Both the position numbers and the translations under genes were made by a program. A stretch of 64,000 nucleotides of DNA from Escherichia phage UE-S1. The stretch lies in the sequence record ON568341.1, one strand, 5' to 3'. The notes beneath the pieces are model-generated. The model had not been told where the DNA came from, did no database searches, and was given only the letters and a program-made list of their open reading frames with translations. Shown here one piece after another: positions 1,518 to 18,557 of this stretch (the first letter of the stretch is position 1; every line of letters begins with the position of its first letter).

Positions 1518-1518
1518 T

Positions 1519-3071: not shown

Positions 3072-3078
3072 CAAAAAA

Positions 3079-3104: not shown

Positions 3105-3139
3105 CTATAATCATTTCATCAACTGATGAGGATAACGAA

Positions 3140-3913: not shown

Positions 3914-3921
3914 TTTCCATA

Positions 3922-3950
3922 TTGACAGTACTAACAATGTGTAGTATTAT
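3922..3950 (+). promoter_or_regulatory. sigma70-like promoter for membrane-protein array
   Basis: TTGACA(3922-3927), 17 nt spacer, TATTAT(3945-3950). Confidence 0.5.
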
Positions 3951-3966
3951 ACACTGGAGACACCTG

Positions 3967-5642: not shown

Positions 5643-6010
5643 TGGAAATTGCTCTTATTATCTTAACTGCTATGCTGTTTATTAGTACTGTGGTTATAAT
5701 TGGTAAATTCTTTTGTGTATCATTTTTAGAAACGGTATACGATGAAATTGCTGATGATTATGAATTACAAGCCGGATTTTTTATTACGTATTGGCTTAGT
5801 TTATTTTGTCTAGTCATTGCTTGGATTTTGCATATCTTTAAATGGGGTATGGTAGATGGTGATCCTGTCATGGGAATTATTGTTCTAGTGTTTGGTATCC
5901 TTGGTGGTGCAGTGCATAATCTGATGGTTATCTGGCAAACTGTTCAATATGTTTTGGTTCCCTATTTTGAAAAGATGCACAGTACAATTAAAAAACGTAA
6001 ACGAGGTTAG
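5642..6010 (+). CDS. small polytopic membrane protein, family member 6
   Basis: TAATG overlap; hydrophobic. Confidence 0.5.
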   Translation: MEIALIILTAMLFISTVVIIGKFFCVSFLETVYDEIADDYELQAGFFITYWLSLFCLVIAWILHIFKWGMVDGDPVMGIIVLVFGILGGAVHNLMVIWQTVQYVLVPYFEKMHSTIKKRKRG

Positions 6011-6011
6011 T

Positions 6012-6374
6012 ATGAACGGGATAGAATTATCTTTCATTGGTCAATTACTAGTAATGGTGAATACTTTCATTTTCTCATTTATTGCATTGATGTGCATTGG
6101 AAAGTATTTCCACAAACGACCATTATCAAATTTATATGATGTAATAAAAAAGAAATATAGTCCAGCACACACTGTACTTATTAGTAGTTTCAATTTTGGG
6201 TTTGTTGTATTAATAATTGGATTGTTAACATCAACGTCGAATGTACTAATCTTCGGTCTTATGATTTGTTCATTGGTATTAGCAGCAATTATATGTTGTT
6301 TAGTACTGCACCTTGTAGTACTATTATATATAAAGCTCGTTGAAATCCATCAACGTTTAGGGATGAGGAAATAA
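6012..6374 (+). CDS. small polytopic membrane protein, family member 7
   Basis: ATG 6012 with GAGG SD; track ORF 5949 trimmed. Confidence 0.5.
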   Translation: MNGIELSFIGQLLVMVNTFIFSFIALMCIGKYFHKRPLSNLYDVIKKKYSPAHTVLISSFNFGFVVLIIGLLTSTSNVLIFGLMICSLVLAAIICCLVLHLVVLLYIKLVEIHQRLGMRK

Positions 6375-6788: not shown

Positions 6789-7439
6789 ATGATGAAATCA
6801 AAATTAGGTTTGTTTTATGGAAACTACTTCATTAAACAGCGTAAATTCATAAAAAAATACTTCTCTACAGAGAAATCTAGTCCTCTAATTTTTAAAAGAC
6901 CAAAATATAATTTTTACTTAGCTGGTGCTAAACAGTCTAAGAAATTCATTACATTTTTAAATAAAAACAAAATTAAAGCTTCTTATGTTGAAACCAGAAA
7001 GAACTCATCAATAATTCCTGGTGATTTTATTGAATACGGATGTTTCAATATTAAGCACAATGATAACACATACTTTATGGATATTGATTGTAATACATCA
7101 AATCTTTTTAACATTGTAATAAATCCATCAAAACAATATAATGTTTATGGTGATTCAATTATCAAATTAATAAGAAACAAAGATTGGTTTGATTTTGAAA
7201 TAAATGTTTTAGATGAAAACTTTGATGAAGTTCCAGTTAATCCTGAAATATGTGATATATTAAACAGTTTAAAAGGTAGTAGCTACAATATACCATCTGA
7301 TTTAATGTTCCAGTACTCATTAATCCATAAAGATATTGAACAGTACATTATGTGTGCTAAAATCTTGAATTATCTGTATGATGAATTTAAAATGAGTTCT
7401 AAAATAACAGCATATACTCTTTATAATATTTCTATATAA
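6789..7439 (+). CDS. hypothetical protein (216 aa, Lys/Asn-rich)
   Basis: AAGGAG SD; long ORF ending at bidirectional terminator. Confidence 0.5.
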   Translation: MMKSKLGLFYGNYFIKQRKFIKKYFSTEKSSPLIFKRPKYNFYLAGAKQSKKFITFLNKNKIKASYVETRKNSSIIPGDFIEYGCFNIKHNDNTYFMDIDCNTSNLFNIVINPSKQYNVYGDSIIKLIRNKDWFDFEINVLDENFDEVPVNPEICDILNSLKGSSYNIPSDLMFQYSLIHKDIEQYIMCAKILNYLYDEFKMSSKITAYTLYNISI

Positions 7440-7450
7440 TTTAAAATATT

Positions 7451-7476
7451 AAAGCCAGCACAAGAGCACTGGCTTT
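7451..7476. terminator. bidirectional terminator hairpin between convergent genes
   Basis: AAAGCCAG-10 nt loop-CTGGCTTT flanked by A/T runs. Confidence 0.5.
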
Positions 7477-7480
7477 AATA

Positions 7481-8626
7481 TTATTTTTTCCAAGGAAGTA
7501 ACGAAGTTGGAATCTTGATAGGTATATTTGATGCAGCAACATCAGGAAAATTTGCATCTCCACAAACATACAAATTATCGATTTCGTCAATCAATAATGT
7601 ATAGTTGTAACTTCTACAAAAACCGCTTAAGCCTCTTCCCTCTAATGCAGATAAATTCATTTCAGTGAATTGAGTTATATATGTTTCATTTGAACCAACA
7701 CCACATTGACCATTAGCATTTATACCACAAGTAAGCAATTTATTATTGTTTTGAATTACACATGATGGTCCAGCAAGGTTCGTACCTAGTTCACCTACAA
7801 CATTAACTTCACCTTTTAATGATAAATTTTGGATCACTGTACTCATAGGGACACGCGATGTATTTCCAACACCTGCTTGTCCTGAGCCATTAGTGGATGC
7901 AACTTTAACAGTACCGTCATTAAGAAAAATATAAGATGTTTCGATGGTATTAACTGCTTGTGTAGCTGTTGTTATTGTCGTATCCTGCTTGAATTTAAGT
8001 ACATTTGTTGTTGTTGAACCAGATATAAATGTAGCACCTGCGTACCAATAGGTTCCATCTTGAAGTACTAAACCAGTACTTCTAATTGAACACCCTGCAC
8101 TGCGAACATTTTCTATATGACTATATGTAAAGGTTGATACGATTGAAGATTCACCATTACCGAACACCCCACCAGTACCTGCACCACAGAAAAACCATTT
8201 ACCGTTTTTCAAAAATACACGCATACAAGCAGAAATAACCACACTATCAATATCACTTGCAGCTACACCAAAATCGGTAAAGAAATGAGTTATATCAATC
8301 CAATTACCACCAGTATTTGATGGGAGATGGGGAATTACAACTCTAGTCCCTGTGTACCAGATTGTATCATCATCTTTAATAACAAGAGTACCTTGAACAC
8401 CACCCCAATACCTTGTTACATTTGTATTAACAAGCCTCCACTCAGTAGATGATTCAGTGGAGCCATTACCACCTTGACCATAAGATGATGAGCCGTGCCA
8501 GTATAAATTTCCATTTTTATCTAAATAAAATTTTGCATCAGCCGAACATTGCAATCTGTATTTGAATACGGTTTTTGGTGCTGGTGCAATATTTGCATAT
8601 TTTAGCATTCTACCAAAAGGTAACAT
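7481..8626 (-). CDS. RCC1-like beta-propeller protein with MLPFGRM tag (paralog 9)
   Basis: N-term MLPFGRMLKYANI; repeats such as CGINANGQCGVGSNET; AAGGAG SD. Confidence 0.7.
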   Translation of the reverse strand: MLPFGRMLKYANIAPAPKTVFKYRLQCSADAKFYLDKNGNLYWHGSSSYGQGGNGSTESSTEWRLVNTNVTRYWGGVQGTLVIKDDDTIWYTGTRVVIPHLPSNTGGNWIDITHFFTDFGVAASDIDSVVISACMRVFLKNGKWFFCGAGTGGVFGNGESSIVSTFTYSHIENVRSAGCSIRSTGLVLQDGTYWYAGATFISGSTTTNVLKFKQDTTITTATQAVNTIETSYIFLNDGTVKVASTNGSGQAGVGNTSRVPMSTVIQNLSLKGEVNVVGELGTNLAGPSCVIQNNNKLLTCGINANGQCGVGSNETYITQFTEMNLSALEGRGLSGFCRSYNYTLLIDEIDNLYVCGDANFPDVAASNIPIKIPTSLLPWKK

Positions 8627-8704
8627 AATTTTTCTCCTTCATTCATTATACTGTATTTAATCCAATTAAGAAAAGCTAGTATCAAGTACTGGCATTTAAA
8701 AGAA
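8627..8704 (-). promoter_or_regulatory. intergenic cassette: terminator hairpin + TAAATA..TATAAT promoter + SD
   Basis: minus strand reads GCCAGTACTTGATACTAGC hairpin ... TTAAATACAGTATAATGAATGAAGGAG-ATG. Confidence 0.5.
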
Positions 8705-9880
8705 TCAAATTGTCGGAAGTGGGAATTCTTTCATCACCGATGAACTGTTTGCTGCAATATTATCAGGAGATTTACCAGCGTAGTATAATTTATTATTAAT
8801 AAACATATATAGCGTTGCATCGTTCCCTGCTACAAGAGAATTACTTTTCTTAAAAATAACCCCTGGGGGTAAAATAGCTTCAACAAATGAACCTGATTCT
8901 CGTGTTGAATTGTTTGCCAATTGACCATTATTATTATAACCAGTACTATAAATTTTACCTGAACTATAATACACAAGACCACGTGTACTAATGTTTTCTA
9001 TACGAATGAATTCACTATCGTCCGGTACTGTAGTTGATAGAACTGGGTATAACTTATAAGCTGATGTTACATTATTATTACCCAATTGACCATAACCTTG
9101 AAAGCCTAGTGCATACATAGGACATGATTCTGGTGTACCTTTTGTTATAATACCAATATAATTCGAACTACAAAAAATATCCACTGCTTCTACAACATTT
9201 GTACCCTTATATTGAACCCAAGGAAATACATATGATTGTTGTTTGCCATTACCCAAAACACCGGAAGTTGTTGTACCTGTACGCCACATTGTATCATCAA
9301 GTTTAATAATCCAGTTAGCAGTTGTTATAGTTGAACAGAATTTTTTAACATTATCAACCAAGTATGTAAATTTATTATAATATGATGCAGTGTTTATTCC
9401 AAATTTAGCACCAGTATTGTCACCTAACAAATATAAACTATTATCTGTACCTAAAATCAAAACATAATCATGACCCACGTATATCTTTTTGATTTTTGAA
9501 ATACCAAATTGTGTAAAATAGCTGGTACATTCAGTGAATATTGTTACATGATTTGATGTATTATTACCTAGCCATTTATCTAAACCACTATAAAAGAACC
9601 TATCATCATTTGTGCGTATTAGACAAAAAGAATTATTTGTACTGCACCAGAAATCTTTGACATTACTATATATTTTTGTCCATTCAGTTACTTGATTAGT
9701 ATGACCTAAACCAAAAATTCCACCATTTTGTAGTCCCATAGCCCATATTGAACCATTTTTATCAAGAAGCATTGTGCATGTAAATGAATACCCACACGCT
9801 GGAGTAACTAATTTAACAAAATTGGGAATATATGGTAAAACTTTATTCCCATAATTCACCATTCTTCCAAAAGGTAACAT
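8705..9880 (-). CDS. RCC1-like beta-propeller protein with MLPFGRM tag (paralog 8)
   Basis: N-term MLPFGRMVNYGNK; STGYNNNGQLANN, LGFQGYGQLGNNN repeats. Confidence 0.7.
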   Translation of the reverse strand: MLPFGRMVNYGNKVLPYIPNFVKLVTPACGYSFTCTMLLDKNGSIWAMGLQNGGIFGLGHTNQVTEWTKIYSNVKDFWCSTNNSFCLIRTNDDRFFYSGLDKWLGNNTSNHVTIFTECTSYFTQFGISKIKKIYVGHDYVLILGTDNSLYLLGDNTGAKFGINTASYYNKFTYLVDNVKKFCSTITTANWIIKLDDTMWRTGTTTSGVLGNGKQQSYVFPWVQYKGTNVVEAVDIFCSSNYIGIITKGTPESCPMYALGFQGYGQLGNNNVTSAYKLYPVLSTTVPDDSEFIRIENISTRGLVYYSSGKIYSTGYNNNGQLANNSTRESGSFVEAILPPGVIFKKSNSLVAGNDATLYMFINNKLYYAGKSPDNIAANSSSVMKEFPLPTI

Positions 9881-9953
9881 ATTCTCTCCTTATTCATTAT
9901 AATATATATTTAATACAAATAATAATGCCAGTACTCAAATACTGGCATTATTA
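9881..9953 (-). promoter_or_regulatory. intergenic cassette: terminator hairpin + promoter + SD
   Basis: GCCAGTATTTGAGTACTGGC hairpin; GTATTAAATATATATTATAATGAATAAGGAG. Confidence 0.5.
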
Positions 9954-11144
9954 TTACAATTGTCTAGGTGTATCCAGAACATATCTATTTGTGCTAGGAC
10001 CGCCATCATCATAAGTTCCGGTTGAATATATATTTTTCATATCAGCAGTTAGAAATGTACGATACGAACCTCTATATATTTTTATTTTATCATACATATT
10101 ATATGTAATTTGTGCTGGCATTGGACATATAGTAAATCTTCCAATAGTCCCCACTGAACCTACCCCCAATGAGCCAGCATAACTACTCGCATTTAAACCA
10201 GTTGCATATACACCAGAACTCGTAACTAGTATACTAGATTGTGATGGGTATCCAGTATGAATTGAATACAAAGTTCCAGGTGGTAATGTCGTACTATTTC
10301 TCCCTAATACAGCAAGTGCCGAACTGGATGTGGTATTATTACCCCATGCACCATTACTTGCTAAACCACCAACTAGGAACTGACGTACACCCGTACTTGG
10401 ATTTTCCACCAAAGCACTGACTGAACCCATTGAGCATCCAGTGTATTGTAACGTTTTTGTGTATGTTGTACTTGGCTGATATAAAGTATATTCATTATAT
10501 AAAGTCCATGTAGTACTGGAACTTATACCGGATGTACCACCACCAATATATAAATTATTTTGTTTATCAAACAACATTACACAGTTATTTGTTGACATTA
10601 TTTGTGCAATATCAACATTAGGTGTTACTGCTTTTACAAATGAACCATCTGTTATTTGTTGAGTTTTTCCAGTACCATCAGCGAATTGTCTAGCCCCACT
10701 CCAACCAGTACTCCATATTGTATTATTATCCATTAAGAAAGTAAACCACGTAGTACCTGCATACATCTGTTTAATTGAAGTACTTGAACTTTGTTTGTAC
10801 AAATTTTCAATATATTGGTTATAACTTAAAAATGATGTAGTACTGGTTGGTAAACCAATATGACTACCAAATCCACAATAGAAATAATTTAAGTCATTAT
10901 CTTGAACTAACAAAGTTCCTTGTGTGATCCAGCAATCATTAACGTTTTCTCTAATTAATGTCCATGTTCTTAATGCAGTGTTGTTTCCTCTCCCAAACTG
11001 CCCAAAACTATTATTACCTCGTGCATATAGTTGACCATCAGTATAAAGTACAACAACATCAGTATCGGTTGTTAGTATTTTCTTAATTTGAAGTGGGATA
11101 GGTACAATATTCCCGTACTTAACCATTCTTGCAAAAGGTAACAT
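9954..11144 (-). CDS. RCC1-like beta-propeller protein with MLPFGRM tag (paralog 7)
   Basis: N-term MLPFARMVKYGNI; ARGNNSFGQFGRGNNT repeat. Confidence 0.7.
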   Translation of the reverse strand: MLPFARMVKYGNIVPIPLQIKKILTTDTDVVVLYTDGQLYARGNNSFGQFGRGNNTALRTWTLIRENVNDCWITQGTLLVQDNDLNYFYCGFGSHIGLPTSTTSFLSYNQYIENLYKQSSSTSIKQMYAGTTWFTFLMDNNTIWSTGWSGARQFADGTGKTQQITDGSFVKAVTPNVDIAQIMSTNNCVMLFDKQNNLYIGGGTSGISSSTTWTLYNEYTLYQPSTTYTKTLQYTGCSMGSVSALVENPSTGVRQFLVGGLASNGAWGNNTTSSSALAVLGRNSTTLPPGTLYSIHTGYPSQSSILVTSSGVYATGLNASSYAGSLGVGSVGTIGRFTICPMPAQITYNMYDKIKIYRGSYRTFLTADMKNIYSTGTYDDGGPSTNRYVLDTPRQL

Positions 11145-11215
11145 ATTTTCCTCCTTTATTCATTATACTATATTTAATCAAAAAGAAAAGCCAGTATCAA
11201 GTACTGGCCTATATT
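11145..11215 (-). promoter_or_regulatory. intergenic cassette: terminator hairpin + promoter + SD
   Basis: GCCAGTACTTGATACTGGC hairpin; GATTAAATATAGTATAATGAATAAAGGAGG. Confidence 0.5.
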
Positions 11216-11953
11216 TTAGACTGAATTGTTAGGATAATATCTCCCCCTTCCCCATATTATTCGCACAGCACCACCACCAGCAGCCGTATAAGAAGAATTA
11301 TCCCATATACTACCACCACCACCATACCTCTTACCAGCACCACCACTACCAGCACCACCATTATATGAACCACCGTAGCTACCACCAATACCATTAGCAC
11401 CTTGAACAATGATACCAGTACCACCACCCGTACCAATGAACGAGGTACTATAGAATGTACCACCCCCACCGCCGCCACCAGCACCATTTTCACCAGTGAT
11501 TGCATCTCCGTTACCACCTTTACCAGTGTAGCCACCAGCACCACCACCAATGACTGCACCACCACTTACACCAGTGTTGCCACCATTACCACCACCATCA
11601 TTAATAGCGTTAGCAGCTTTTCCACCTAGTCCACCAACCGTATATGCACCAGTGAAGCTAACACATAGTTTTTCAGTTCCACGATATAAACCGTTTTCAA
11701 CTGCTGTAGTAGTGTTGGGATGTGTAAGAGAAACACTTAAGTACTCACCACCAGAAACCGGAATATTATTACGCCACGATAAGCCGCCACCAGCACCACG
11801 TTGACCACCCGGCGAAATAACACATACTGATATTTCGGTAACGCCAGCAGGAACTGTAAATTGTGTTGTTCCTATTGTCGTGATTAATTGTTCACCATGT
11901 GGCTTATATTCAATTTTATTCCCGAACTTAACCATTCTTCCAAAAGGTAACAT
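11216..11953 (-). CDS. glycine-rich protein with MLPFGRM tag (paralog 6, non-propeller)
   Basis: N-term MLPFGRMVKFGNK; long GGxGG runs (..GGGNGGNTGVSGG..GAGGGGGGG..). Confidence 0.65.
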   Translation of the reverse strand: MLPFGRMVKFGNKIEYKPHGEQLITTIGTTQFTVPAGVTEISVCVISPGGQRGAGGGLSWRNNIPVSGGEYLSVSLTHPNTTTAVENGLYRGTEKLCVSFTGAYTVGGLGGKAANAINDGGGNGGNTGVSGGAVIGGGAGGYTGKGGNGDAITGENGAGGGGGGGTFYSTSFIGTGGGTGIIVQGANGIGGSYGGSYNGGAGSGGAGKRYGGGGSIWDNSSYTAAGGGAVRIIWGRGRYYPNNSV

Positions 11954-12024
11954 AATTCCCTCCTTTATTTGTTATACTATATTTAATACAAAAAGAAAAG
12001 CCAGTACTCAGTACTGGCATAATG
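11954..12024 (-). promoter_or_regulatory. intergenic cassette: terminator hairpin + promoter + SD
   Basis: GCCAGTACTGAGTACTGGC hairpin; GTATTAAATATAGTATAACAAATAAAGGAGGG. Confidence 0.5.
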
Positions 12025-13167
12025 TCAATAAGTATCCCAAGGTAATGGTGTCTTCCTAAATCCATACCTGGTTGTGCTCGCACCATCACCAGCAATGTAT
12101 CTACCTATACCACATTGGTATAACTCTGTACTACTACATATAGCACCACCTATAGTACCACTACTCCACTGAATTATATTAGAATATGTTATTGGTAAAT
12201 CACTACATTTAGTATATACAGCAACGGTAGAAGCACCACTAATACCACCAAACATACTTCGCTTAGCACCAGTGTAATATATACCATCTGGACTCATAAA
12301 TGCAGAGGTGTAAGTTGTACTGCAATCCACTGGACTTCTTATTGTATTAAGATCGCCTGGATATGTTCTGACACCAAAGGTGTATACATTACCATCAGTT
12401 GTAATACCATTACCTAACTGCCCACTGTTTTGTCCACCACATGTAAGCAACGATGCAGAACCAGAAACAATTGCAGTAGCATTATACGAAGTGCCCATTG
12501 CAATAGAAGCACCAGACAATAGTTTTGGAGTAACAATAGCTGTTGTATTACCCTGGCCTAATTCACCATTTGTGTTTCGTCCCCATGCGTATATGGAAGT
12601 AGTATCCAACCTACATAGTACTGAACCATAACTAAACGTATATCGCATGTCAATTACCGCAGAAGGCAAATTAACCTTAGTTGCAACACTAATAACACCA
12701 CCAGTAACACCACTGTTTGCGTTCATGTTACGACCATATGCATATAAAGAACCATCTGAAGTTTTAATATGCATCATACCATCTGTACAATATAATGCAT
12801 CTATACTCTCCACCGCAACCGGACCCATACTGGTAGTTATATCGGTCCACCCAAGAGTAGTAGTACTAGAAATTAAGTTATTTCCTGCGTATAGTATTCT
12901 ATTATTATTAGTAACTACAACTGTATATCTGGCAGTAACACCAATTAATCGAACATCAGTATATATCTTAGACCACGCACCTAATGAATTGGTGTTTGCA
13001 TCCAAAAAGCCCAACTGCCCATCTGTATTGTATCCAATGCCCCATACATCACCTGCACTGTCCAATAACACTTCATGTGAAAATCCAATCTTAAAATCTT
13101 TTATTGTAGGAACTACCGGATCTGGTGCAATATTCCCGTACTTAACCATTCTAGTAAAAGGTAACAT
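12025..13167 (-). CDS. RCC1-like beta-propeller protein with MLPFGRM tag (paralog 5)
   Basis: N-term MLPFTRMVKYGNI; WGIGYNTDGQLGF, WGRNTNGELGQGN, CGGQNSGQLGNG repeats. Confidence 0.7.
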   Translation of the reverse strand: MLPFTRMVKYGNIAPDPVVPTIKDFKIGFSHEVLLDSAGDVWGIGYNTDGQLGFLDANTNSLGAWSKIYTDVRLIGVTARYTVVVTNNNRILYAGNNLISSTTTLGWTDITTSMGPVAVESIDALYCTDGMMHIKTSDGSLYAYGRNMNANSGVTGGVISVATKVNLPSAVIDMRYTFSYGSVLCRLDTTSIYAWGRNTNGELGQGNTTAIVTPKLLSGASIAMGTSYNATAIVSGSASLLTCGGQNSGQLGNGITTDGNVYTFGVRTYPGDLNTIRSPVDCSTTYTSAFMSPDGIYYTGAKRSMFGGISGASTVAVYTKCSDLPITYSNIIQWSSGTIGGAICSSTELYQCGIGRYIAGDGASTTRYGFRKTPLPWDTY

Positions 13168-13240
13168 AATTCCCTCCCTTATTCATTATAATATATTTAA
13201 TACAAAAAAGAAAAGCCAGTACTTGAGTACTGGCATTATG
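13168..13240 (-). promoter_or_regulatory. intergenic cassette: terminator hairpin + promoter + SD
   Basis: GCCAGTACTTGAGTACTGGC(13215-13234); GTATTAAATATATTATAATGAATAAGGGAGG. Confidence 0.5.
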
Positions 13241-14350
13241 TTATTTTGGTAAATCAATTTTAGTAAAGACTGCAACATCCTCGCTTGCCCCAGGAATGGC
13301 GTAATACGATCCAGTACTATATACATCTCCGTCTTTGGTTAATATTGATGTTAAACCATCACTAAAAAGAACATCCCTAATCTCACTAACTTCAACGGGT
13401 AATTGTAAATTAGTAGCACTATATATTGCACCAGTTTGAGAATTGTTTAATCCCAAACCACGGTTCGCCCCAACACCCTTCTGATATGTACTAGTAATTA
13501 TCATTTGTGTAGCAGTATTTAAGGCAGGTGAATTCGTCATAAACAACGGAGAACTATTAGGCAAAGTACTTGCAGGAACTGCACGAAATGAAGTTGTATC
13601 TGAACTAAGAAAGTTTGGCGTTTGACCACATACGAAATATGATGTACCATTATAGTAATTAAATGCATTACCACCAATGACTGCATCGATTACACCAGAG
13701 CTACGTAATCCCCACGTGTTAATTTGTGTTCGGTTCCCCGTGCCATGCTGACCCCTGTCATTCCACCCAGAACTATATAACTTATTATCTAATGTAATAT
13801 ACATACTGTCATTTGCATTCGTCATTACTTTACGCACATTAGTAGCACATTGAGTTAATGTGTAAATTGATGATGAACCAATACCTAAAGCACCACGATA
13901 TCCATTAGCTCCTGCACCATAGAGTACTGAACTAGTGCTAAGTACAAATATTAAACCATACGAACATACAATATTAGCAATTTCACTCACTGGTATAGCA
14001 CTGGTAAACCAATTAGTTCTTTCAACTAATACTGTGCTGTAAGAAGTAGTTGTAGACGATGTGAACCAATATGTTTCCCCTGATGTCCATATAGTATTAT
14101 CATTTTTAATAATAACAAGTGCACGATCACCTACGAAAAAATTAGAAACATCTGCACTTACTAATATCCATGAAGATACCGTGTTTTTATTACCATTTCC
14201 AGATTCACCACCTTGATTTCTACCTATGTAATATAAATCATGTGAATCAGTTAATAAGAATTGACCCTGTGTAGATGCACCAACTTTAATTATATTTTTA
14301 GGACCAGGTACAATATTCCCATAATCAAACATTCTTACAAAAGGTAACAT
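13241..14350 (-). CDS. RCC1-like beta-propeller protein with MLPFGRM tag (paralog 4)
   Basis: Start set at conserved MLPFVRMFDYGNI (track ORF extends 5 codons upstream); SSGWNDRGQHGTGN repeat. Confidence 0.65.
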   Translation of the reverse strand: MLPFVRMFDYGNIVPGPKNIIKVGASTQGQFLLTDSHDLYYIGRNQGGESGNGNKNTVSSWILVSADVSNFFVGDRALVIIKNDNTIWTSGETYWFTSSTTTSYSTVLVERTNWFTSAIPVSEIANIVCSYGLIFVLSTSSVLYGAGANGYRGALGIGSSSIYTLTQCATNVRKVMTNANDSMYITLDNKLYSSGWNDRGQHGTGNRTQINTWGLRSSGVIDAVIGGNAFNYYNGTSYFVCGQTPNFLSSDTTSFRAVPASTLPNSSPLFMTNSPALNTATQMIITSTYQKGVGANRGLGLNNSQTGAIYSATNLQLPVEVSEIRDVLFSDGLTSILTKDGDVYSTGSYYAIPGASEDVAVFTKIDLPK

Positions 14351-14425
14351 AACTAAAATCTCCATATAATAATTATAATGTATTTACAAAAAAATACCAG
14401 CACATATTTCAGTACTGGTATAATG
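14351..14425 (-). promoter_or_regulatory. intergenic cassette: terminator hairpin + promoter + SD
   Basis: CCAGTACTGAAATATGTGCTGG hairpin; TGTAAATACATTATAAT...GGAG. Confidence 0.45.
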
Positions 14426-15607
14426 TTATGGTAAAATAATAGCTTGTAACGAACTCATACCCAATGTTGGAACACTCGCCTGTGGTGCTGGAGAATTCAA
14501 TTTTGGTGATGAAACCGCATATGACATTCCTGAACCCAAATCTGGATCAAAAACTACAGCACAATAATTCCCACTATATATAAGTCCATTCTTGTATCCT
14601 TGTGCACTTTGAATGCATTTCGTGAACGTACCAATATCTGTAGTGGCATTTATTAAGTTCCTCCCACGATAACCGCAGGTGTATATGAAATTATCATCGC
14701 CTATGTACATACTAGAATCCCCAGAAGAACTACATAGATACGACATATAAGCACGCATGTTTTTAGGAGCAACTGACAATGTACCTGCATAGAATTTATT
14801 ATTCGAACCCGTAATATTACCATCACCCAATGCACCAAAACTTCCCCAGCCAGTACCGTAATATCTCTTATCACTCAAAAATATAATACAGTTGTTATTA
14901 CACATCTTGATTTGATATATCAATGAAGGATCAATCCCAGGGAATGATTCAGTGAATGTTAGAACAGCCGGATCAGTACTAGCATTACATTGATGATATG
15001 TATTAGTACCAGCGGACAAGATTGTTCCATTAGCTAACAGAATTCTCGCAGTACCAGTACCAGCAGTACAAGCAACTGCACTTCCTGCACTTCCGGTGTA
15101 TATTTGTCTGAAAGTAAAGAAACCAACAGTTTTACTTCCCTGCCCACTCCAACCAGTATTATCAACTCCACACGCCCATACTGAACCATCTTGCATGATC
15201 ATCATTACACCAAAGCGTTCTATTGAAATATAAACAATCTTCGTTGTATCAACTGCACTAAATCTAGAAGTTATATCAGTCCATACCTTAACACTTACCG
15301 CCGTCGCACTGGAAGTAGGATCTTCACCAGCTATCATTATCCTCCCATTGTTAGTAAGATACATTGTCTGACTATAACCAGTACTACAAAACTTAACACT
15401 ATCAGTCTCTGGAACTTTTAACCACTCGTTGTAACGTGTTACGTTAGTGTTATTACCTAACTGATAATAGTTATTCATCCCAGATACATATAACACACCA
15501 TCCTTTATTAAACTATAAGTCGCACTATAGTCACTACAGGTATAACGTGTACCCACAGGTGGCTCAACGACGTTCCCGTACTTAACCATTCTCCCAAAAG
15601 GTAACAT
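14426..15607 (-). CDS. RCC1-like beta-propeller protein with MLPFGRM tag (paralog 3)
   Basis: N-term MLPFGRMVKYGNV; TGWGSFGALGDGN, MNNYYQLGNN repeats. Confidence 0.7.
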   Translation of the reverse strand: MLPFGRMVKYGNVVEPPVGTRYTCSDYSATYSLIKDGVLYVSGMNNYYQLGNNTNVTRYNEWLKVPETDSVKFCSTGYSQTMYLTNNGRIMIAGEDPTSSATAVSVKVWTDITSRFSAVDTTKIVYISIERFGVMMIMQDGSVWACGVDNTGWSGQGSKTVGFFTFRQIYTGSAGSAVACTAGTGTARILLANGTILSAGTNTYHQCNASTDPAVLTFTESFPGIDPSLIYQIKMCNNNCIIFLSDKRYYGTGWGSFGALGDGNITGSNNKFYAGTLSVAPKNMRAYMSYLCSSSGDSSMYIGDDNFIYTCGYRGRNLINATTDIGTFTKCIQSAQGYKNGLIYSGNYCAVVFDPDLGSGMSYAVSSPKLNSPAPQASVPTLGMSSLQAIILP

Positions 15608-15680
15608 AATAAAATCTCCGTAATTAAATTATATAGTATTTACAAAAAATACCAGTACATATTTCAGTACTGACCTATTA
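15608..15680 (-). promoter_or_regulatory. intergenic cassette: terminator hairpin + promoter + SD
   Basis: CAGTACTGAAATATGTACTGG hairpin; TGTAAATACTATATAAT...GGAG. Confidence 0.45.
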
Positions 15681-16802
15681 TTAAAAGGGCAACGGTAACT
15701 CAGTAAAAGTACTTACGTCCGGTAAACCATACATTAAATTAGCATCACCACAGTAATACCACTTCGTAGAATCATGTACCACCGATAAACGCTGTGCACA
15801 TAACACTTCCTGTATGTCATTAAACACCATCGGGACTAACTCATATGTATCTGCAAATGAAGATTCACTACCACTCGCATGAAAAGTATTTGTCCCAGCA
15901 TAAAATAACTGATTAGTGTTCTTACCCACAGCAAATGTTATCAAAACCCCATCATTCTCCCATAAAGAAGAAAACTTATCAACACTACCAGAAAGCTCTG
16001 TGTAAGTACTCGTAATGGCACTCGCCGCCGCCGCATTACCCATCTGTTTATTCAAGTTCTGTCCAGCAATAAAATATCTCGTTCGTGCACTAGAATCAGT
16101 ATATAATAACCCAGTGTTCGTAGTCATCATTCCAATGTCCTTAATCGTCATATCAGTCTGTGAATAACTTAGATACGAAGTTAAATTAACATTATTACCC
16201 AACGAACCGTTAGAACTCATGCCACAACGATGTAATATACCACTTGTATCAACGTAGATAGTACTAACTAAACTCGTATACAACTCTTGTACATTATTCG
16301 CAATAAACACAGCAGTCGCCTTATTACTAACCCCACCAAATGATAGGTTATTATCAAATCCCTTAGCGTATAATTGATTATTAGTAGTCAATAATCCAAT
16401 CGTGTAATAAGACATTTTCATATCCCTTACTGTACTCAAATCTACTGCCCCAAATTGATACGTAACATCTGTCCATTTGAAAATCTGTGCACTACCAACA
16501 CCACCCGTTTCAAACCATTTGTCACCACAGTACAATATGCGATTATCCTTAGTAAAGATAACTGTTAACAATCCACTACCACACGCAAACTTTACATCAC
16601 TTCTAACCTTCGTCCAATCAAGTACATAGGTAGTGGTGTTATTACCTATACCTAACTTGCCATAACGGTTATAACCACGCACCCATAAATCACCACTCTT
16701 AGTAATTAATAGTAATGCGTCTCCTGTACTTATTATTCGAAATCCCGAACTAGGATCAGGGGCAATATTCCCGTACTTAACCATTCTCCCAAAAGGTAAC
16801 AT
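15681..16802 (-). CDS. RCC1-like beta-propeller protein with MLPFGRM tag (paralog 2)
   Basis: N-term MLPFGRMVKYGNI; YNRYGKLGIGNNT, MSSNGSLGNN repeats. Confidence 0.7.
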   Translation of the reverse strand: MLPFGRMVKYGNIAPDPSSGFRIISTGDALLLITKSGDLWVRGYNRYGKLGIGNNTTTYVLDWTKVRSDVKFACGSGLLTVIFTKDNRILYCGDKWFETGGVGSAQIFKWTDVTYQFGAVDLSTVRDMKMSYYTIGLLTTNNQLYAKGFDNNLSFGGVSNKATAVFIANNVQELYTSLVSTIYVDTSGILHRCGMSSNGSLGNNVNLTSYLSYSQTDMTIKDIGMMTTNTGLLYTDSSARTRYFIAGQNLNKQMGNAAAASAITSTYTELSGSVDKFSSLWENDGVLITFAVGKNTNQLFYAGTNTFHASGSESSFADTYELVPMVFNDIQEVLCAQRLSVVHDSTKWYYCGDANLMYGLPDVSTFTELPLPF

Positions 16803-16875
16803 ATTTTCCTCCTTTATTCATTATACTATATTTAATACAAAAAGAAATGCCAGTATCAAGTACTGGCATATTAAT
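16803..16875 (-). promoter_or_regulatory. intergenic cassette: terminator hairpin + promoter + SD
   Basis: GCCAGTACTTGATACTGGC hairpin; GTATTAAATATAGTATAATGAATAAAGGAGG. Confidence 0.5.
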
Positions 16876-18024
16876 TCATTGTATAAATGACATATCTACT
16901 TCTGTATAATTAAGAACGTTCTGTCCAGAAATACCACCCATTACTACTATTGCAAGGCCACAATAATATAATTTTCCAGTATCCGTAAGTATAAGTGATC
17001 CAGATGGACTGCGTACCAAATCACACGAACTATTAAAAGAAGTATAAGAAGGAGTATAGGAGTACTGATTATTATTATTACCAACACCTAATTGCCCAAA
17101 CCCATTCGATCCAGAAGCATATAGAACTTCATCTGCTTTGACAATATGTGATGCCATGTTACCAACACAAGTATATAGAGTATAAACTCCTGAACTCAAT
17201 AATGTCGGAGTTTTATATTGTATATCTGTAGATGTAGAAGTACCACCTGTACCAAATTCGTTCCCATATTGTGCACCGAACTGTTTGCCACAAGCGTACA
17301 AATTATTATCCGATTTGATAAAAAATGTACTCTGATAACTTACATTAAAATCTATAACATCCGAAGAAATCATCGTCACCCCAGTAATAGAAGTTTGATT
17401 ACCCGTGCCCAACTGGTAGTAATAGTTAAAACCACAACCCCATAAAGTATTATCTTCTCGCAAATAAATGTTACCAACTGCCTTTTTAACCGAAGTTATA
17501 GTATCTACTCTTTTGAATGTGTTAAAAGAATTAATGTTTGTACCATCACCAAATGATGATATGTTCGATATATTGTTAACTCCACAACAATACAATGTAC
17601 CATCTTTTGTTATCAAATTCACCTTCATATCATAAAAACTACTCATGTATTTTATATCAGAAACATTAACACCACTTGATGTTATCCACGTAGTACAGTC
17701 CGTCCACAAAGTTTTTCTATCAGTTACACCAGTGAATGCCTTCGTGTTACCAGTGATAAAAACTTTTCCAGTACCTTTCTCTTCATACAATTGACAATCA
17801 CTACTGTTATCTTCCAATAGAACTCGTTTAACATTCTCCGCACAAAGAATAAATTTACTCGATGCTACACCTGTACCAGTACCCCAATTCGTCGCAGAAG
17901 ATGCATACAACTTATCAGTATAAGTATCATGAAGATACATAGAATCACTGGAATATATTTTAAAACGCCCTTCTTTCTCAGGTATAATATTCCCGTACTT
18001 AACCATTCTCCCAAAAGGTAACAT
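16876..18024 (-). CDS. RCC1-like beta-propeller protein with MLPFGRM tag (paralog 1)
   Basis: N-term MLPFGRMVKYGNI; GSNGFGQLGVGNNN, FNYYYQLGTGNQT repeats. Confidence 0.7.
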   Translation of the reverse strand: MLPFGRMVKYGNIIPEKEGRFKIYSSDSMYLHDTYTDKLYASSATNWGTGTGVASSKFILCAENVKRVLLEDNSSDCQLYEEKGTGKVFITGNTKAFTGVTDRKTLWTDCTTWITSSGVNVSDIKYMSSFYDMKVNLITKDGTLYCCGVNNISNISSFGDGTNINSFNTFKRVDTITSVKKAVGNIYLREDNTLWGCGFNYYYQLGTGNQTSITGVTMISSDVIDFNVSYQSTFFIKSDNNLYACGKQFGAQYGNEFGTGGTSTSTDIQYKTPTLLSSGVYTLYTCVGNMASHIVKADEVLYASGSNGFGQLGVGNNNNQYSYTPSYTSFNSSCDLVRSPSGSLILTDTGKLYYCGLAIVVMGGISGQNVLNYTEVDMSFIQ

Positions 18025-18060
18025 ATTCCCTCCTTATTCATTATATCATATTTACCCAAA
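18025..18060 (-). promoter_or_regulatory. promoter + SD of first array gene
   Basis: minus strand GGTAAATATGATATAATGAATAAGGAGGG-ATG. Confidence 0.45.
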
Positions 18061-18065
18061 AAACA

Positions 18066-18094
18066 CTTGACACCCTTTCAGTACTGTTGTACAA
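18066..18094 (+). promoter_or_regulatory. sigma70-like promoter (divergent from array)
   Basis: TTGACA(18066-18071), 17 nt spacer, TACAAT(18089-18094). Confidence 0.5.
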
Positions 18095-18120
18095 TAGAAG
18101 GAATATTAGGAGAACTACAT

Positions 18121-18348
18121 ATGACAAATACCCTTAAGTACTACCTCAATACTCTGCCCGACCTAGAGTACGGGAAGTTTCTCGCAGATAGTTCGTGGCT
18201 GATTGAGCTAAAAAAATATAATAGTCCCGGATGCACCCTTATGATGAACAATGCAATTGATACCCTTATAGTGAGTATTTTACATAGCAACATCTACGGG
18301 GATAACAATAAACAATTAACAAAAATCTTAGTACTGCTATCTCTATGA
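18121..18348 (+). CDS. small protein, MNNHKEYY...LLIYRY-type family (75 aa)
   Basis: ATG 18121 with AGGAG SD; C-term hydrophobic ..TKILVLLSL. Confidence 0.5.
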   Translation: MTNTLKYYLNTLPDLEYGKFLADSSWLIELKKYNSPGCTLMMNNAIDTLIVSILHSNIYGDNNKQLTKILVLLSL

Positions 18349-18557
18349 ACACTATGAGCACTGAACAGTTCTACATCAATGCACTACCAACTAAAAGTCT
18401 TCAAGAAAGCTTACTGTATACACAAAAGAATTTTAAAAACTTCAAACGTTGCCCTAAACTACTGAACTCGTACAGGAATAATATTATAAGAAATGTTTTA
18501 CAAGGAGAAGAAAGTATGCAATACTATCACATCCTTATACTTATATTGGAGTACTAA
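18345..18557 (+). CDS. small protein, tandem family
   Basis: ATGA overlap with previous gene; C-term ..YYHILILILEY. Confidence 0.5.
   Translation: MNTMSTEQFYINALPTKSLQESLLYTQKNFKNFKRCPKLLNSYRNNIIRNVLQGEESMQYYHILILILEY

What the first reader, a model, noticed from the sequence alone, without database searches (positions are those of the whole stretch)
8627..16875. Each array gene is a self-contained promoter-SD-tag / terminator cassette
Every intergenic gap in the array is 70-78 bp and holds the same pieces on the minus strand: a palindromic hairpin GCCAGTACTnnAGTACTGGC acting as the upstream gene's terminator, then (G/T)TAAATA-n3-TATAAT, then AAGGAG(G) and ATG. The first ~40 nt of coding sequence are also conserved at nucleotide level. 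This is the architecture expected for recombinational shuffling of gene cassettes via conserved flanks, here around large genes rather than small early ORFs. The TAAATA..TATAAT box resembles but does not match the T4 late promoter TATAAATA, so the expression class is unclear.
Basis: partly seen in the sequence, partly recalled or inferred. Interest (0 to 1): 0.65.

Follow-up and report, generated by a model that had tools for sequence, protein, structure and literature searches.

The report
Shufflable virion-protein gene cassettes, jumbo phage
A giant E. coli phage carries nine tandem genes for virion proteins, each framed by the same terminator, late-type promoter, ribosome site and 12-residue N-terminal tag, and related phages have gained, lost and reordered these units by recombining within the shared frames.

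Summary
Nine minus-strand genes (7481-18024) are separated by 71-78 bp gaps. Each gap carries a hairpin with CCAGTAC arms plus a T-run (7 of 8 stable), a TAAATA-N3-TATAAT box, AAGGAG and ATG. All nine genes start ATGTTACCTTTT and encode MLPFxRMxxYGN.

The window is an Asteriusvirus-like jumbo coliphage (121Q/PBECO4 group). Eight genes encode RCC1-like seven-bladed propellers and one an unrelated protein.

The recombination reading is supported. In 13 relatives the array runs from about 8 to 21 kb, with cassettes present or absent and in different orders. All 90 homology-block ends fall within -76 to +49 of a start codon. The first 36 nt exist as alleles that swap between unrelated gene bodies.

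The expression class is probably late:
- TAAATA is the core upstream of the capsid and baseplate genes of phAPEC6.
- It is about six-fold depleted in this window, apart from the nine array boxes.
- Eight phAPEC6 array proteins were found in virions by mass spectrometry.

The tag is disordered in the AlphaFold model. It also heads unrelated virion proteins in GAP32, so it looks like a virion-docking signal.

The closest known system is the PeSL cassettes of T4-like phages, but the sigma-70 -35 element is missing. I rate this a new variant of a known kind. Transcription and tag function remain untested.

The parts
16876..18024 (-). Cassette 1 gene (orthogroup D), 382 aa. N-terminal tag MLPFGRMVKYGN followed by an RCC1-like 7-bladed propeller.
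   Evidence: Pfam RCC1 hits. AlphaFold model: pLDDT 90, residues 1-17 below 50. Foldseek matches UVR8, HERC2 and RCC1 at TM about 0.72. 96.9% identical to phAPEC6 gp549, which was detected in virions.
18025..18066 (-). First-position promoter region: GGGTAAATA-TGA-TATAAT, then AAGGAGG. It has no hairpin. It lies back to back with a divergent sigma-70-type promoter on the + strand (18067-18095).
   Evidence: The same upstream segment precedes different first genes in relatives: D, J, U, Q and S.
16803..16875 (-). Junction 1>2: hairpin at 16847-16869 plus T-run, box at 16820-16834, then SD.
   Evidence: (-12.0 kcal/mol, z -4.0).
15681..16802 (-). Cassette 2 gene (orthogroup S), 373 aa, tag plus RCC1-like propeller.
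15608..15680 (-). Junction 2>3, variant type: hairpin at 15651-15674 with an 8-nt loop, TGTAAATA-CTA-TATAAT at 15628-15642, then GGAG.
   Evidence: (-8.1 kcal/mol, z -2.2). The identical junction is present in Turkey3.
14426..15607 (-). Cassette 3 gene (orthogroup T), 393 aa, tag plus RCC1-like propeller.
14351..14425 (-). Junction 3>4, variant type: hairpin at 14394-14421, TGTAAATA-CAT-TATAAT at 14372-14386, then GGAG. An in-frame ATG at 14365 is probably not the real start.
   Evidence: (-14.4 kcal/mol, z -5.4). This junction travels with upstream gene T in WPEC5 and Turkey3.
13241..14350 (-). Cassette 4 gene (orthogroup B), 369 aa, tag MLPFVRMFDYGN plus RCC1-like propeller.
13168..13240 (-).
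   Evidence: (-13.2 kcal/mol, z -4.3).
12025..13167 (-). Cassette 5 gene (orthogroup C), 380 aa, tag plus RCC1-like propeller.
   Evidence: 83.8% identical to phAPEC6 gp005, which was detected in virions.
11954..12024 (-). Junction 5>6: hairpin at 12000-12018, box TAAATA-TAG-TATAAC at 11971-11985, then SD.
   Evidence: -12.4 kcal/mol, z -3.7.
11216..11953 (-). Cassette 6 gene (orthogroup G), 245 aa, glycine-rich. It has the same tag (MLPFGRMVKFGN) but is not RCC1-like.
   Evidence: No Pfam hit even at E of 5 or less. Matches phrog_4474, unknown function.
11145..11215 (-). Junction 6>7: hairpin at 11188-11210, box at 11162-11176, then SD.
   Evidence: (-11.5 kcal/mol, z -3.5).
9954..11144 (-). 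Cassette 7 gene (orthogroup A), 396 aa, tag plus RCC1-like propeller.
9881..9953 (-). Junction 7>8: extended hairpin at about 9920-9953 with a weaker T-tail. The box at 9896-9912 has a 5-nt spacer. SD follows.
   Evidence: (-19.2 kcal/mol, z -6.0).
8705..9880 (-). Cassette 8 gene (orthogroup K), 391 aa, tag plus RCC1-like propeller.
8627..8704 (-). Junction 8>9: degenerate hairpin at about 8675-8693 (one arm mutated to TACTAGC), box at 8645-8659, then SD.
   Evidence: (-4.1 kcal/mol, z 0.0).
7481..8626 (-). Cassette 9 gene (orthogroup Y), 381 aa, tag MLPFGRMLKYAN plus RCC1-like propeller.
7441..7480 (.). Strong bidirectional terminator hairpin. It closes the array against the convergent + strand gene 6789-7439.
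   Evidence: -20.7 kcal/mol, z -6.9.

Best explanation
The locus is a tandem array of individually framed genes for low-abundance virion proteins in an Asteriusvirus-like jumbo coliphage. Each unit has five pieces, in this order:
1. A T4-type late promoter core (nTAAATA), followed by a conserved TATAAT-containing leader.
2. A strong SD.
3. A 36-nt stretch encoding a flexible N-terminal tag, MLPFxRMxxYGN.
4. A variable cargo, which is an RCC1-like seven-bladed propeller in 8 of 9 units.
5. An intrinsic terminator hairpin with a T-run.

The frame from hairpin to codon 12 is about 110 nt long and is shared by all units, while the bodies are only about 22% identical in amino acids. Homologous recombination between frames, within one genome or between co-infecting phages, duplicates, deletes, replaces and reorders whole cassettes.

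Shown here: the anatomy, the cassette-level variation, the breakpoints in the frames, the mosaic 5' alleles, the propeller fold and the disordered tag.

Inferred: late timing, from motif and proteome evidence; the tag as a docking or incorporation signal, because it heads unrelated virion proteins; and adaptive value, as a swappable library of host-interaction proteins.
For: **Identity of the phage.** Megablast gives 85-98% identity to 36 Asteriusvirus records, and no record covers 80% or more of the array.

**Cassette variation.** The distance between the conserved flanks ranges from about 8 to 21 kb. Orthogroup strings show presence/absence and reordering.

**Breakpoints.** All 90 blastn block ends between the window and 12 relatives lie within -76 to +49 of an ATG, and none lies inside a gene body.

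**Recombination in the frame.**
- The same first-position promoter precedes five different genes.
- The T-type junction, with its VRMFDYG allele, precedes B or Ar.
- Pairs with unrelated bodies are 79-87% identical in CDS nt 10-36 but about 30% in the body.
- 50 of 325 ortholog pairs with bodies at least 90% identical differ at 5 or more of 24 tag-region positions.
- 12 of 52 36-nt alleles are shared by unrelated orthogroups.
- Synonymous codons are fixed: TTA in 37 of 37 orthogroups, CCT in 36 of 37, AGA in 33 of 37, against body usage of 0.45, 0.29 and 0.40.

**Late class.**
- The phAPEC6 capsid, scaffold, portal-cluster and baseplate genes carry (T/C/A)ATAAATA or nnTAAATA upstream. This includes ATTAAATA and GGTAAATA, the same variants as in the array.
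- phAPEC6 gp237c is annotated in its GenBank record as a sigma factor for late transcription; the CBB paper (PMC5259590) describes a gp55-like late sigma in the related phage CBB.
- TAAATA occurs 24 times against 140 +/- 10 expected in the window, and 9 of the 24 are the array boxes.
- Only 1 of 136 other genes has TAAATA within 60 nt upstream.

**Virion association.** The phAPEC6 mass-spectrometry table lists gp003, 005, 006, 007, 009, 010, 549 and 551 (PMC7247149). All of them map inside the array. GAP32 gp1 was found in virions (PMC5259590).

**Tag.**
- It is disordered in the AlphaFold model.
- It is present on the non-RCC1 cassette G.
- It is present on GAP32 gp1 and on the unrelated GAP32 gp2, annotated as a virion structural protein.
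- It heads seven non-RCC1 genes in a 378-kb IMG/VR contig.
Against: - No transcript data exist, so promoter and terminator activity and timing are inferred from motifs only.
- The array box is ATTAAATA, TGTAAATA or GGTAAATA, not the canonical TATAAATA.
- The conserved TATAAT three bases downstream has no counterpart at structural-gene promoters, so its role is unexplained.
- One hairpin is degenerate and one lacks a good T-tail.
- In relatives, about a fifth of junctions are 8-15 bp with no regulatory frame, yet cassettes still differ on either side of them. The intergenic frame is therefore not required for shuffling.
- Peptide counts for the array proteins in phAPEC6 virions are low: 1-5 peptides and 3-17% coverage.
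- Where these proteins sit in the virion is unknown.
- Conserved frames could be explained by purifying selection alone, with recombination as a by-product.
Confidence: 0.7

Rival explanations
1. The frames are ordinary regulatory and peptide elements inherited from the ancestral duplicated gene and kept by purifying selection. Recombination between them is an unavoidable by-product of tandem paralogy (a 'genomic accordion'), not a feature with its own role.
For: - The tag is conserved at the peptide level even where nucleotides differ. Examples are MIPFARIMKYGN and MLPFAIMNPYGN in distant paralogs, and the ATGTTACCA/CCG variants in L024.
- Short junctions without the intergenic frame still border different cassettes.
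- The stems are nearly invariant, as expected for a functional terminator.
Against: - Synonymous positions of codons 2-6 are fixed across 37 orthogroups whose bodies are saturated.
- Identical 36-nt alleles are shared by up to 10 unrelated orthogroups.
- Close orthologs carry different alleles.
These patterns need ongoing exchange, not just descent. This rival differs from the best explanation mainly in whether the shuffling is 'for' anything.
Confidence: 0.2
2. The box is not a late promoter. TATAAT would be the -10 element of a host sigma-70 promoter, or of a promoter for the phage-encoded sigma-70-like factor. The genes would then be early or middle genes.
For: - TATAAT is a perfect sigma-70 -10 element in 7 of 9 units.
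- The first-position box reads TGATATAAT, which is an extended -10.
- The array sits next to the early region, with its many sigma-70 promoters.
- Relatives encode an extra sigma-70-like factor (PMC5259590; PMC13070987).
Against: - No -35 element lies 16-18 bp upstream; that position is the T-run.
- The genuine early promoters of this window have TTGACA and a CAGTACTG spacer, which the array boxes lack.
- In divergent junction types and in GAP32 and L024, the conserved part is TAAATA, while the second hexamer drifts to GATATT, AATATT or TATAAC.
- TAAATA is strongly avoided elsewhere in the window.
- The products are virion proteins.
Confidence: 0.15
3. The array is transcribed as one long mRNA from the first promoter. 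On this view the hairpins serve as RNA-stability or processing elements, or as attenuators, rather than as terminators, and the internal boxes are inactive relics.
For: - Short, translationally coupled junctions (stop overlapping SD) exist in relatives.
- One hairpin in the window is degenerate and one has a poor T-tail.
Against: - Six of 8 hairpins meet intrinsic-terminator criteria, with a T-run.
- The G17 annotators' ARNold run predicted putative terminators (-10 to -12.8 kcal/mol) at most junctions of the G17 array.
- The internal boxes are as well conserved as the first one, in a genome that otherwise purges TAAATA.
Confidence: 0.1
4. The hairpins are primarily DNA-level sites. They would be instances of the genome-wide (C)AGTACT(G) palindrome, bound or cut by a phage factor that promotes site-directed cassette exchange, integron-like.
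For: - AGTACT occurs 257 times against about 22 expected, and CAGTACTG 68 times against about 0.7.
- The hairpin arms contain CCAGTAC(T).
- The loops are hypervariable while the stems are fixed.
Against: - Many junction hairpins in relatives lack an exact AGTACT, for example GCCAGTACACTGTACTGGC.
- Block ends and allele swaps map to the promoter, SD and tag part and to codons 12-16, not to the hairpin.
- Exchange also occurs at junctions with no hairpin.
- No integrase-like gene was seen next to the array.
Confidence: 0.05

Closest known systems
PeSL (promoter-early stem-loop) regulatory cassettes of T4-like phages (Arbiol et al. 2010, PMC2839356; Comeau et al. 2014, PMC4122927)
   Same: Both are composite intergenic motifs of stem-loop/terminator, promoter and SD, ending at the start codon. 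Both are repeated between variable genes of a hyperplastic region. In both, insertions, deletions and replacements between related phages have their breakpoints in the motif (for PeSLs; here).
   Different: - PeSLs carry a sigma-70 consensus early promoter with -35 and -10 elements. The array frame has no -35 and carries the late-type TAAATA core.
- PeSLs flank small unrelated ORFans. Here the cargo is a family of 1.1-kb paralogous virion-protein genes.
- Here the homology continues 36 nt into the coding sequence as a peptide tag.
- The early promoters elsewhere in this window (TTGACA-N8-CAGTACTG-TATAAT plus a leader hairpin) look more PeSL-like than the array frames do.
T4 capsid-targeting sequence (CTS) and the polymorphic internal-protein (IP) locus of T-even phages. 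This comparison rests on my own knowledge (Mullaney and Black; Repoila et al. 1994) and was not checked in the library.
   Same: A short conserved N-terminal peptide is shared by otherwise unrelated virion-delivered proteins. The genes are clustered and highly variable between close relatives. Conserved 5' ends are available as recombination substrates.
   Different: - The CTS is removed by the prohead protease at an L/I-x-E site. No such conserved site follows MLPFxRMxxYGN.
- A capsid-internal location is not shown for the array proteins.
- The cargo here is a large propeller family.
Modular tail fibre and tailspike genes, with a conserved N-terminal anchor and exchangeable receptor-binding C-terminus. 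This rests on my own knowledge.
   Same: A conserved N-terminal docking part is joined to a hypervariable body. Bodies are swapped by recombination at the conserved part. The products are in the virion.
   Different: The anchor here is only about 12 residues and disordered, not a folded domain of 100 residues or more. The bodies are single RCC1-like propellers with no fibre or beta-helix features.
Tandem paralog 'genomic accordions' of large DNA viruses. This rests on my own knowledge.
   Same: Copy number expands and contracts by unequal recombination in tandem arrays. phAPEC6 shows a possible recent two-cassette duplication.
   Different: Here each unit keeps its own promoter and terminator, and the units are deeply diverged (about 22% identity) rather than recent copies.

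Membership tests
PeSL cassettes (T4-like phages) | Intergenic composite of a stem-loop, a promoter and an SD, ending at the start codon | tested here: met
   All 8 internal gaps have this layout, and 7 of the 8 hairpins are stable.
PeSL cassettes (T4-like phages) | Promoter identical to the sigma-70 consensus, with -35 and -10 elements and an AT-rich upstream region (an early promoter) | tested here: not met
   The -10-like TATAAT is present. However, the 16-18 bp upstream position is the terminator T-run, and no TTGACA-like hexamer is there. The conserved element is TAAATA instead.
PeSL cassettes (T4-like phages) | Insertion, deletion and replacement breakpoints between related genomes coincide with the motif | tested here: met
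   All 90 block ends fall within -76 to +49 of a start codon. Orthogroup strings differ among genomes. 5' alleles are mosaic.
PeSL cassettes (T4-like phages) | Formation of excised mini-circles by recombination between neighbouring motifs | not testable with these tools
   This needs outward-facing PCR or long-read data from infected cells.
T4-type late promoter (gp55-dependent) | A TATAAATA-like element with no -35 element | tested here: inconclusive
   The array has ATTAAATA, TGTAAATA or GGTAAATA, so the TAAATA core is invariant but the first two bases are off consensus. The same variants precede phAPEC6 gp250c and gp247. The capsid and scaffold genes have the exact TATAAATA.
T4-type late promoter (gp55-dependent) | The motif is used upstream of late or structural genes and avoided elsewhere | tested here: met
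   17 of 30 upstream regions in the phAPEC6 structural region carry TAAATA. In the window it occurs 24 times against 140 expected, and 9 of those are the array boxes. Only 1 of 136 other genes has it upstream.
T4-type late promoter (gp55-dependent) | The phage encodes a gp55-like late sigma factor, and transcripts appear late | not testable with these tools
   phAPEC6 gp237c is annotated as a late-transcription sigma factor, and the CBB paper describes a gp55-like sigma in CBB; I did not test either homology. No such gene lies in this window, and timing needs RNA data.
Intrinsic (rho-independent) terminator | A G+C-containing stem-loop directly followed by a T-run | tested here: met
   Six of 8 gaps pass the scan. 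Seven of 8 fold at -8 to -19 kcal/mol. ARNold-predicted terminators are annotated at most junctions of the G17 array. Function was not tested.
RCC1-like repeat propeller (PF00415/PF25390) | A seven-bladed beta-propeller made of RCC1 repeats | tested here: met
   PF00415 or PF13540 scores above the gathering cut-off in 6 of 9 proteins; PF25390 gives sub-threshold matches in 8 of 9. The AlphaFold model has pLDDT 90 and Foldseek matches UVR8, HERC2 RLD and RCC1 at TM about 0.72. Gene 11216-11953 is not a member.
RCC1-like repeat propeller (PF00415/PF25390) | 'DNA/chromosome condensation' activity, as the annotations in public records imply | not tested
   The label is carried over from eukaryotic RCC1. 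No evidence here or in the papers read supports DNA binding.
T4 capsid-targeting sequence | A short conserved N-terminal peptide shared by unrelated virion-packaged proteins | tested here: met
   The tag is found on RCC1-like bodies, on the phrog_4474 body, on the GAP32 gp2-type body and on further bodies in L024. Several of these proteins were detected in virions.
T4 capsid-targeting sequence | Cleaved off by the prohead protease at a conserved site after packaging | tested here: not met
   No conserved L/I-x-E or comparable motif follows the tag in the alignments. Actual processing can only be settled by N-terminal proteomics.

The most novel reading that the evidence does not exclude
MLPFxRxxxYGN may be a clade-wide 'plug' for the virion of Rak2-like jumbo phages (Asteriusvirus, Mimasvirus and uncultured relatives). 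Any protein that carries this 12-residue disordered tag would be docked to, or loaded into, the particle. The arrays would then be recombination-ready libraries of swappable virion-borne proteins, either adhesins or injected effectors. The system would be a functional analogue of the T4 capsid-targeting sequence, but joined to a PeSL-like late-promoter/terminator frame. In that case the 'DNA condensation' annotation of dozens of public records would be wrong.
Probability: 0.35. Interest if true: 0.75.

Novelty: new variant of a known kind. Interest (0 to 1): 0.55.

Why it matters
**A second mechanism of the PeSL type.** If right, this is a second, mechanistically distinct example of regulatory-frame-mediated modular shuffling in phages. 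It involves late virion genes of a jumbo phage and extends into the coding sequence as a peptide tag.

**A testable handle on the virion.** The work suggests how these very large phages diversify a set of virion proteins between close relatives. This is plausibly relevant to host range or to countering defences. The 12-residue tag might also be usable to load foreign proteins into the particle.

**Annotation.** The paralogs are labelled 'regulator of chromosome condensation' or 'DNA condensation' in public records. That label has no support here or in the papers read.

**Gene calling.** The result gives a practical rule for Asteriusvirus annotation: start at MLPF, and expect unannotated or mis-framed cassettes.

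Tried and rejected
- **Exact consensus search.** I replaced it with folding each gap.
- **Sigma-70 scan.** It finds no more promoter-like sites than shuffles do (75 against 64 +/- 8) and does not pick up the array boxes as full promoters.
- **Rfam.** Nothing meaningful lies in 7000-18500. There is one sub-threshold frnS hit at E 0.62.
- **Velcro-strand idea.** I considered that the tag might be the closing strand of the propeller. This is rejected, because residues 1-17 have pLDDT below 50 and the tag also heads non-propeller proteins.
- **Gene G and GAP32 gp2.** I considered that gene G (11216-11953) might be homologous to GAP32 gp2. This is rejected, because only the 12-residue tag aligns.
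- **Covariation in the hairpin.** The stems are almost invariant across 77 distinct junctions, so a covariation test would say little. It was not run.
- **Scan of IMG/VR.** Searching for ATGTTACCTTTTNNNAGAATG gave three chance hits with short ORFs (L020-L022), besides 121Q and one informative contig, L024.
- **Literature.** No paper in the library describes this cassette frame, an Asteriusvirus promoter analysis, or the AGTACT excess. Subscription papers, such as the GAP32 genome paper, could not be searched.
- **CMSTMSU.** The record (L007) was dropped because it is marked unverified and is full of frameshifts.

Full report
**1. What is in the sequence**

Window 7481-18024 holds nine consecutive minus-strand genes. 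With the start of the fourth gene placed at its MLPF codon (14350), the eight gaps are 71-78 bp. Read on the minus strand, each gap contains these pieces in order:
- a hairpin whose arms are GCCAGTAC and (G)TACTGGC;
- a T-run;
- (T/G)TAAATA, then three bases, then TATAAT;
- GAATAAAGGAGG;
- about 7 nt and then ATG.

All nine genes begin ATGTTACCTTTT, a 12-mer found nowhere else in the 64 kb (9 observed, 0.03 expected). The exact composite TAAATA-N3-TATAAT occurs 7 times, always in the array (0.16 expected). The two remaining units have TATAAC or a 5-nt spacer.

Seven of the eight hairpins fold at -8 to -19 kcal/mol, with z-scores of -2.2 to -6.0. The hairpin in 8627-8704 has lost an arm base and is not stable. 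The first gene has the box but no hairpin. A -20.7 kcal/mol bidirectional terminator closes the array at 7441-7480.

Pairwise nucleotide identity among the nine genes is 100%, 81% and 82% for nt 1-12, 13-24 and 25-36. It then drops to 44% and 30%. Overall protein identity is about 22%.

**2. What the genes are**

The window is 85-98% identical, in patches, to 36 Asteriusvirus genomes. These are jumbo myoviruses of about 350 kb infecting E. coli and Salmonella, such as 121Q, PBECO4, phAPEC6 and G17. No record covers 80% or more of the array.

Eight products match the RCC1-like domain model PF25390 below its gathering cut-off, and six of them also reach the cut-off for an RCC1 repeat model. An AlphaFold model of gene 16876-18024 has pLDDT 90 and pTM 0.87. 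It is a seven-bladed propeller that superposes on UVR8, HERC2 RLDs and RCC1 at TM about 0.72. The sixth gene (11216-11953, 245 aa, glycine-rich) is not RCC1-like. It matches phrog_4474 and has no Pfam hit, but it carries the same frame and tag.

Public records label these proteins 'regulator of chromosome condensation' or 'DNA condensation protein'. That is a name transfer from eukaryotic RCC1, and the phAPEC6 authors say the function is unknown.

**3. The cassettes are shuffled among relatives**

I located the two conserved flanks in other genomes. The distance between them ranges from about 8 kb (ph0011) to about 21 kb (CMSTMSU, WPEC3, Turkey3).

I fetched the array from 14 relatives and dropped the unverified CMSTMSU record. 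Clustering all products at 75% identity gives strings in transcription order:

| Phage | Cassette order |
|---|---|
| window | D S T B C G A K Y |
| 121Q | D Z B I A G Aj C L M Aa .. |
| PBECO4 | J B I D A .. C K P .. |
| JP4 | D B K A V G C .. |
| WPEC5 | D Q T B C A G .. |
| ph0011 | S V A Ac Y |

Cassettes are present or absent, and several change position. D is first in some genomes and fifth in others. K follows B, C or A. The G/A order is inverted.

**4. The exchanges happen in the frame**

- Blastn of the window array against 12 relatives gives 45 blocks, each of one to three cassettes. All 90 block ends lie between -76 and +49 of a start codon, and none lies in a gene body.
- The segment upstream of the first gene is the same whether that gene is D, J, U, Q or S.
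- The variant junction that follows gene T precedes B in the window and WPEC5 but Ar in Turkey3. It brings along the VRMFDYG version of the tag.
- The tag region exists as a few alleles (GRMVKYG, VRMFDYG, ARMMNYG and others) that do not follow the gene bodies.
- Of 325 ortholog pairs with bodies at least 90% identical, 50 differ at 5 or more of 24 positions in nt 13-36. Of 52 distinct 36-nt alleles, 12 are shared by unrelated orthogroups, and one is shared by ten.
- Pairs with unrelated bodies are 79-87% identical in nt 10-36 against about 30% in the body.
- Synonymous sites are frozen across 37 orthogroups: TTA in 37 of 37, CCT in 36 of 37 and AGA in 33 of 37. The corresponding body usage is 0.45, 0.29 and 0.40.

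Together these results show ongoing homologous exchange or conversion within the roughly 110-nt frame.

A caveat applies. In relatives, about one junction in five is only 8-15 bp, with the stop codon inside the SD (TAGGAGG) and no terminator or promoter, and different cassettes still follow such junctions. The tag-coding stretch alone may therefore suffice, and 'self-contained cassette' is typical rather than obligatory.

**5. Expression class**

In the phAPEC6 structural region, the major head, scaffold, protease, portal-cluster, baseplate and other virion genes carry (T/C/A)ATAAATA or nnTAAATA 17-50 nt before the ATG. The variants ATTAAATA and GGTAAATA, which the array uses, are among them. 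The phAPEC6 record annotates gp237c, which lies in the same region, as a sigma factor for late transcription. The CBB paper reports ATAAATA as the putative late motif of Rak2-like phages and a gp55-like late sigma factor in CBB.

In this window TAAATA is strongly avoided: 24 sites on both strands against 139.9 +/- 9.8 in shuffles. Nine of the 24 are the array boxes. Only 1 of 136 other genes has TAAATA within 60 nt upstream, and TATAAATA is absent.

The products are virion proteins. The phAPEC6 virion proteome lists gp003, 005, 006, 007, 009, 010, 549 and 551, all of which lie in its array. gp549 is 96.9% identical to window gene 16876-18024, and gp005 is 83.8% identical to 12025-13167. GAP32 gp1 was also found in virions.

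I therefore read TAAATA as a T4-type late promoter core. This is an inference. The conserved TATAAT three bases downstream is specific to this gene class. It is absent from 50 kb of structural genes and drifts to GATATT or AATATT in GAP32 and L024. It may be the start-site and leader region or a second promoter element. No -35 hexamer is present.

**6. The tag**

- Residues 1-17 are disordered in the model.
- The motif M-[LI]-P-F-x-R-x-x-x-Y-G-N persists in paralogs down to 38% identity.
- It heads GAP32 gp1 (MLPFSRIIQYGN), which belongs to a different genus.
- It heads GAP32 gp2 (MLPFARIFRYGD), an unrelated 'virion structural protein', and a third ORF at the GAP32 record start.
- A 378-kb IMG/VR contig has seven consecutive tag-bearing genes of 217-285 aa with several different bodies. 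One 77-bp junction there again shows hairpin, T-run and GTAAATA.
- More distant phage RCC1 proteins lack the tag.

A short disordered N-terminal peptide shared by unrelated virion proteins is best explained as a docking or incorporation signal. This is inferred and not shown. No conserved protease site follows the tag.

**7. Comparison with known systems**

The nearest described mechanism is the PeSL cassette of T4-like phages: a stem-loop, promoter and SD motif between variable genes that mediates modular shuffling.

The array meets the layout and breakpoint criteria but fails the defining sigma-70 early promoter criterion. It differs further in its cargo, which is large paralogous virion genes, and in extending into the coding sequence. 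I therefore do not file it as a PeSL. It works like one.

The tag-plus-variable-cargo logic resembles the T4 capsid-targeting sequence and IP locus, and tail-fibre anchor modules. Both of those comparisons come from my own knowledge.

The literature I could read notes only the following:
- these phages have many RCC1-like genes;
- two 'chromosome condensation regulators' differ between two close relatives;
- ARNold finds terminators there.

The frame, the tag and the shuffling do not appear to have been described.

**8. Side observation bearing on the hairpin**

The hairpin arms overlap a palindrome that is hugely over-represented in the whole window. AGTACT occurs 257 times against about 22 expected, which is 12-fold; the next palindromic hexamer is only 3-fold. 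CAGTACTG occurs 68 times against about 0.7 expected. Sites occur in all three reading frames and are about two-fold enriched between genes.

The excess is also seen in the phAPEC6 structural region (91 sites in 50 kb), in GAP32 (81 in 12 kb) and in L024 (83 in 15 kb).

Many sites belong to early promoters of the form AGTACT-TTGACA-N8-10-(C)AGTACT(G)-TATAAT. Many junction hairpins in relatives lack an exact AGTACT, so the link to the array is partial. I found no description of this motif.

**9. Verdict**

The mechanism is frame-mediated homologous shuffling of late virion-protein cassettes, at confidence 0.7. The untested steps are transcription starts and stops, timing, tag function and biological role. 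I rate it a new variant of a known kind, with interest 0.55.

Noticed in passing
whole window; densest at 18000-42000. Also L016 (phAPEC6 135-185 kb), L017 (GAP32 1-12 kb) and L024: The palindrome AGTACT is about 12-fold over-represented (257 sites against about 22 expected). CAGTACTG occurs 68 times against about 0.7 expected. Sites lie in all three reading frames and are enriched between genes. The excess is shared by phAPEC6 (91 per 50 kb), GAP32 (81 per 12 kb) and an uncultured relative (83 per 15 kb). No other palindromic hexamer exceeds 3-fold. The function is unknown, and no description was found in the library.
   Followed up: partly
window, + strand: 28, 22286, 25061, 26718, 27503, 29825, 31007, 32273, 32584, 32861, 34343, 35648, 36070, 38500; - strand: 25233, 27157: The early-type promoters share an unusual architecture: (AAAGTACT)-TTGACA-N8-10-(C)AGTACT(G)-(G)TATAAT. 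They are often followed by a conserved leader hairpin (GGGGAGAA..TTCTCCCC). GAP32 has the same layout, AGTACT-TTGACA-N10-AGTACT-T-TATAAT. The two palindromes bracket the -35 element and abut the -10 element, which looks like an operator pair or a PeSL-style stem-loop.
   Followed up: partly
whole window: TAAATA is about six-fold depleted: 24 sites on both strands against 139.9 +/- 9.8 in shuffles. TATAAATA is absent. Nine of the 24 sites are the array boxes. One further gene (45785-46027, +) has AATTAAATA 35 nt upstream.
   Followed up: partly
window + strand of the array gaps, e.g. 12009-12024, 13226-13240, 14410-14425: Read on the + strand, several terminator hairpins run straight into AGTACTGGCATAAT or AGTACTGGTATAAT. 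That is the same string as the -10 half of the window's early promoters (e.g. 25061, 29832). No -35 element lies upstream, so these could be antisense promoters or relics.
   Followed up: no
L002 (G17), L003 (PBECO4), L011 (Turkey3), L015 (WPEC5) and others: Relatives have a second junction type of only 8-15 bp, with the stop codon inside the SD (..TAGGAGGGAATATG). Examples are J-B, L-Ab/Ad/Af/M and Af-Ag. These pairs must be co-transcribed. A recurrent 380-bp gap after cassette M looks like a decayed cassette.
   Followed up: partly
L024 (IMGVR_UViG_2974588491_000001, 378 kb), minus strand, about 870-6140: Seven consecutive genes of 217-285 aa all start with the MLPF..Y[GA]N tag but have several different non-RCC1 bodies. 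Two resemble the GAP32 gp2 virion protein. This is a second kind of tag-bearing array in an uncultured Rak2-like phage.
   Followed up: partly
L018/L019 (phAPEC6 MK817115.1 array, across the record origin): A two-cassette unit (D'-Z) appears twice in tandem across the record origin, with the Z copies 97.7% identical over 1330 nt. It is either a recent duplication or an assembly effect. The G-type cassette is unannotated there, with a wrong-frame gp004 called instead. gp002 is annotated with an upstream start rather than MLPF.
   Followed up: partly
window 58070-58154 (+): ARAGORN calls an 85-nt tRNA-Cys with anticodon ACA, lying inside the ORF 58022-58510. It is possibly spurious.
   Followed up: no
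window 18067-47000 (+): This is a long run of very small + strand ORFs, mostly 40-120 aa, with frequent strong sigma-70-type promoters and repeated intergenic modules. It looks like the early or host-takeover region. In relatives it adjoins the roughly 20-kb direct terminal repeat (PMC13070987).
   Followed up: no
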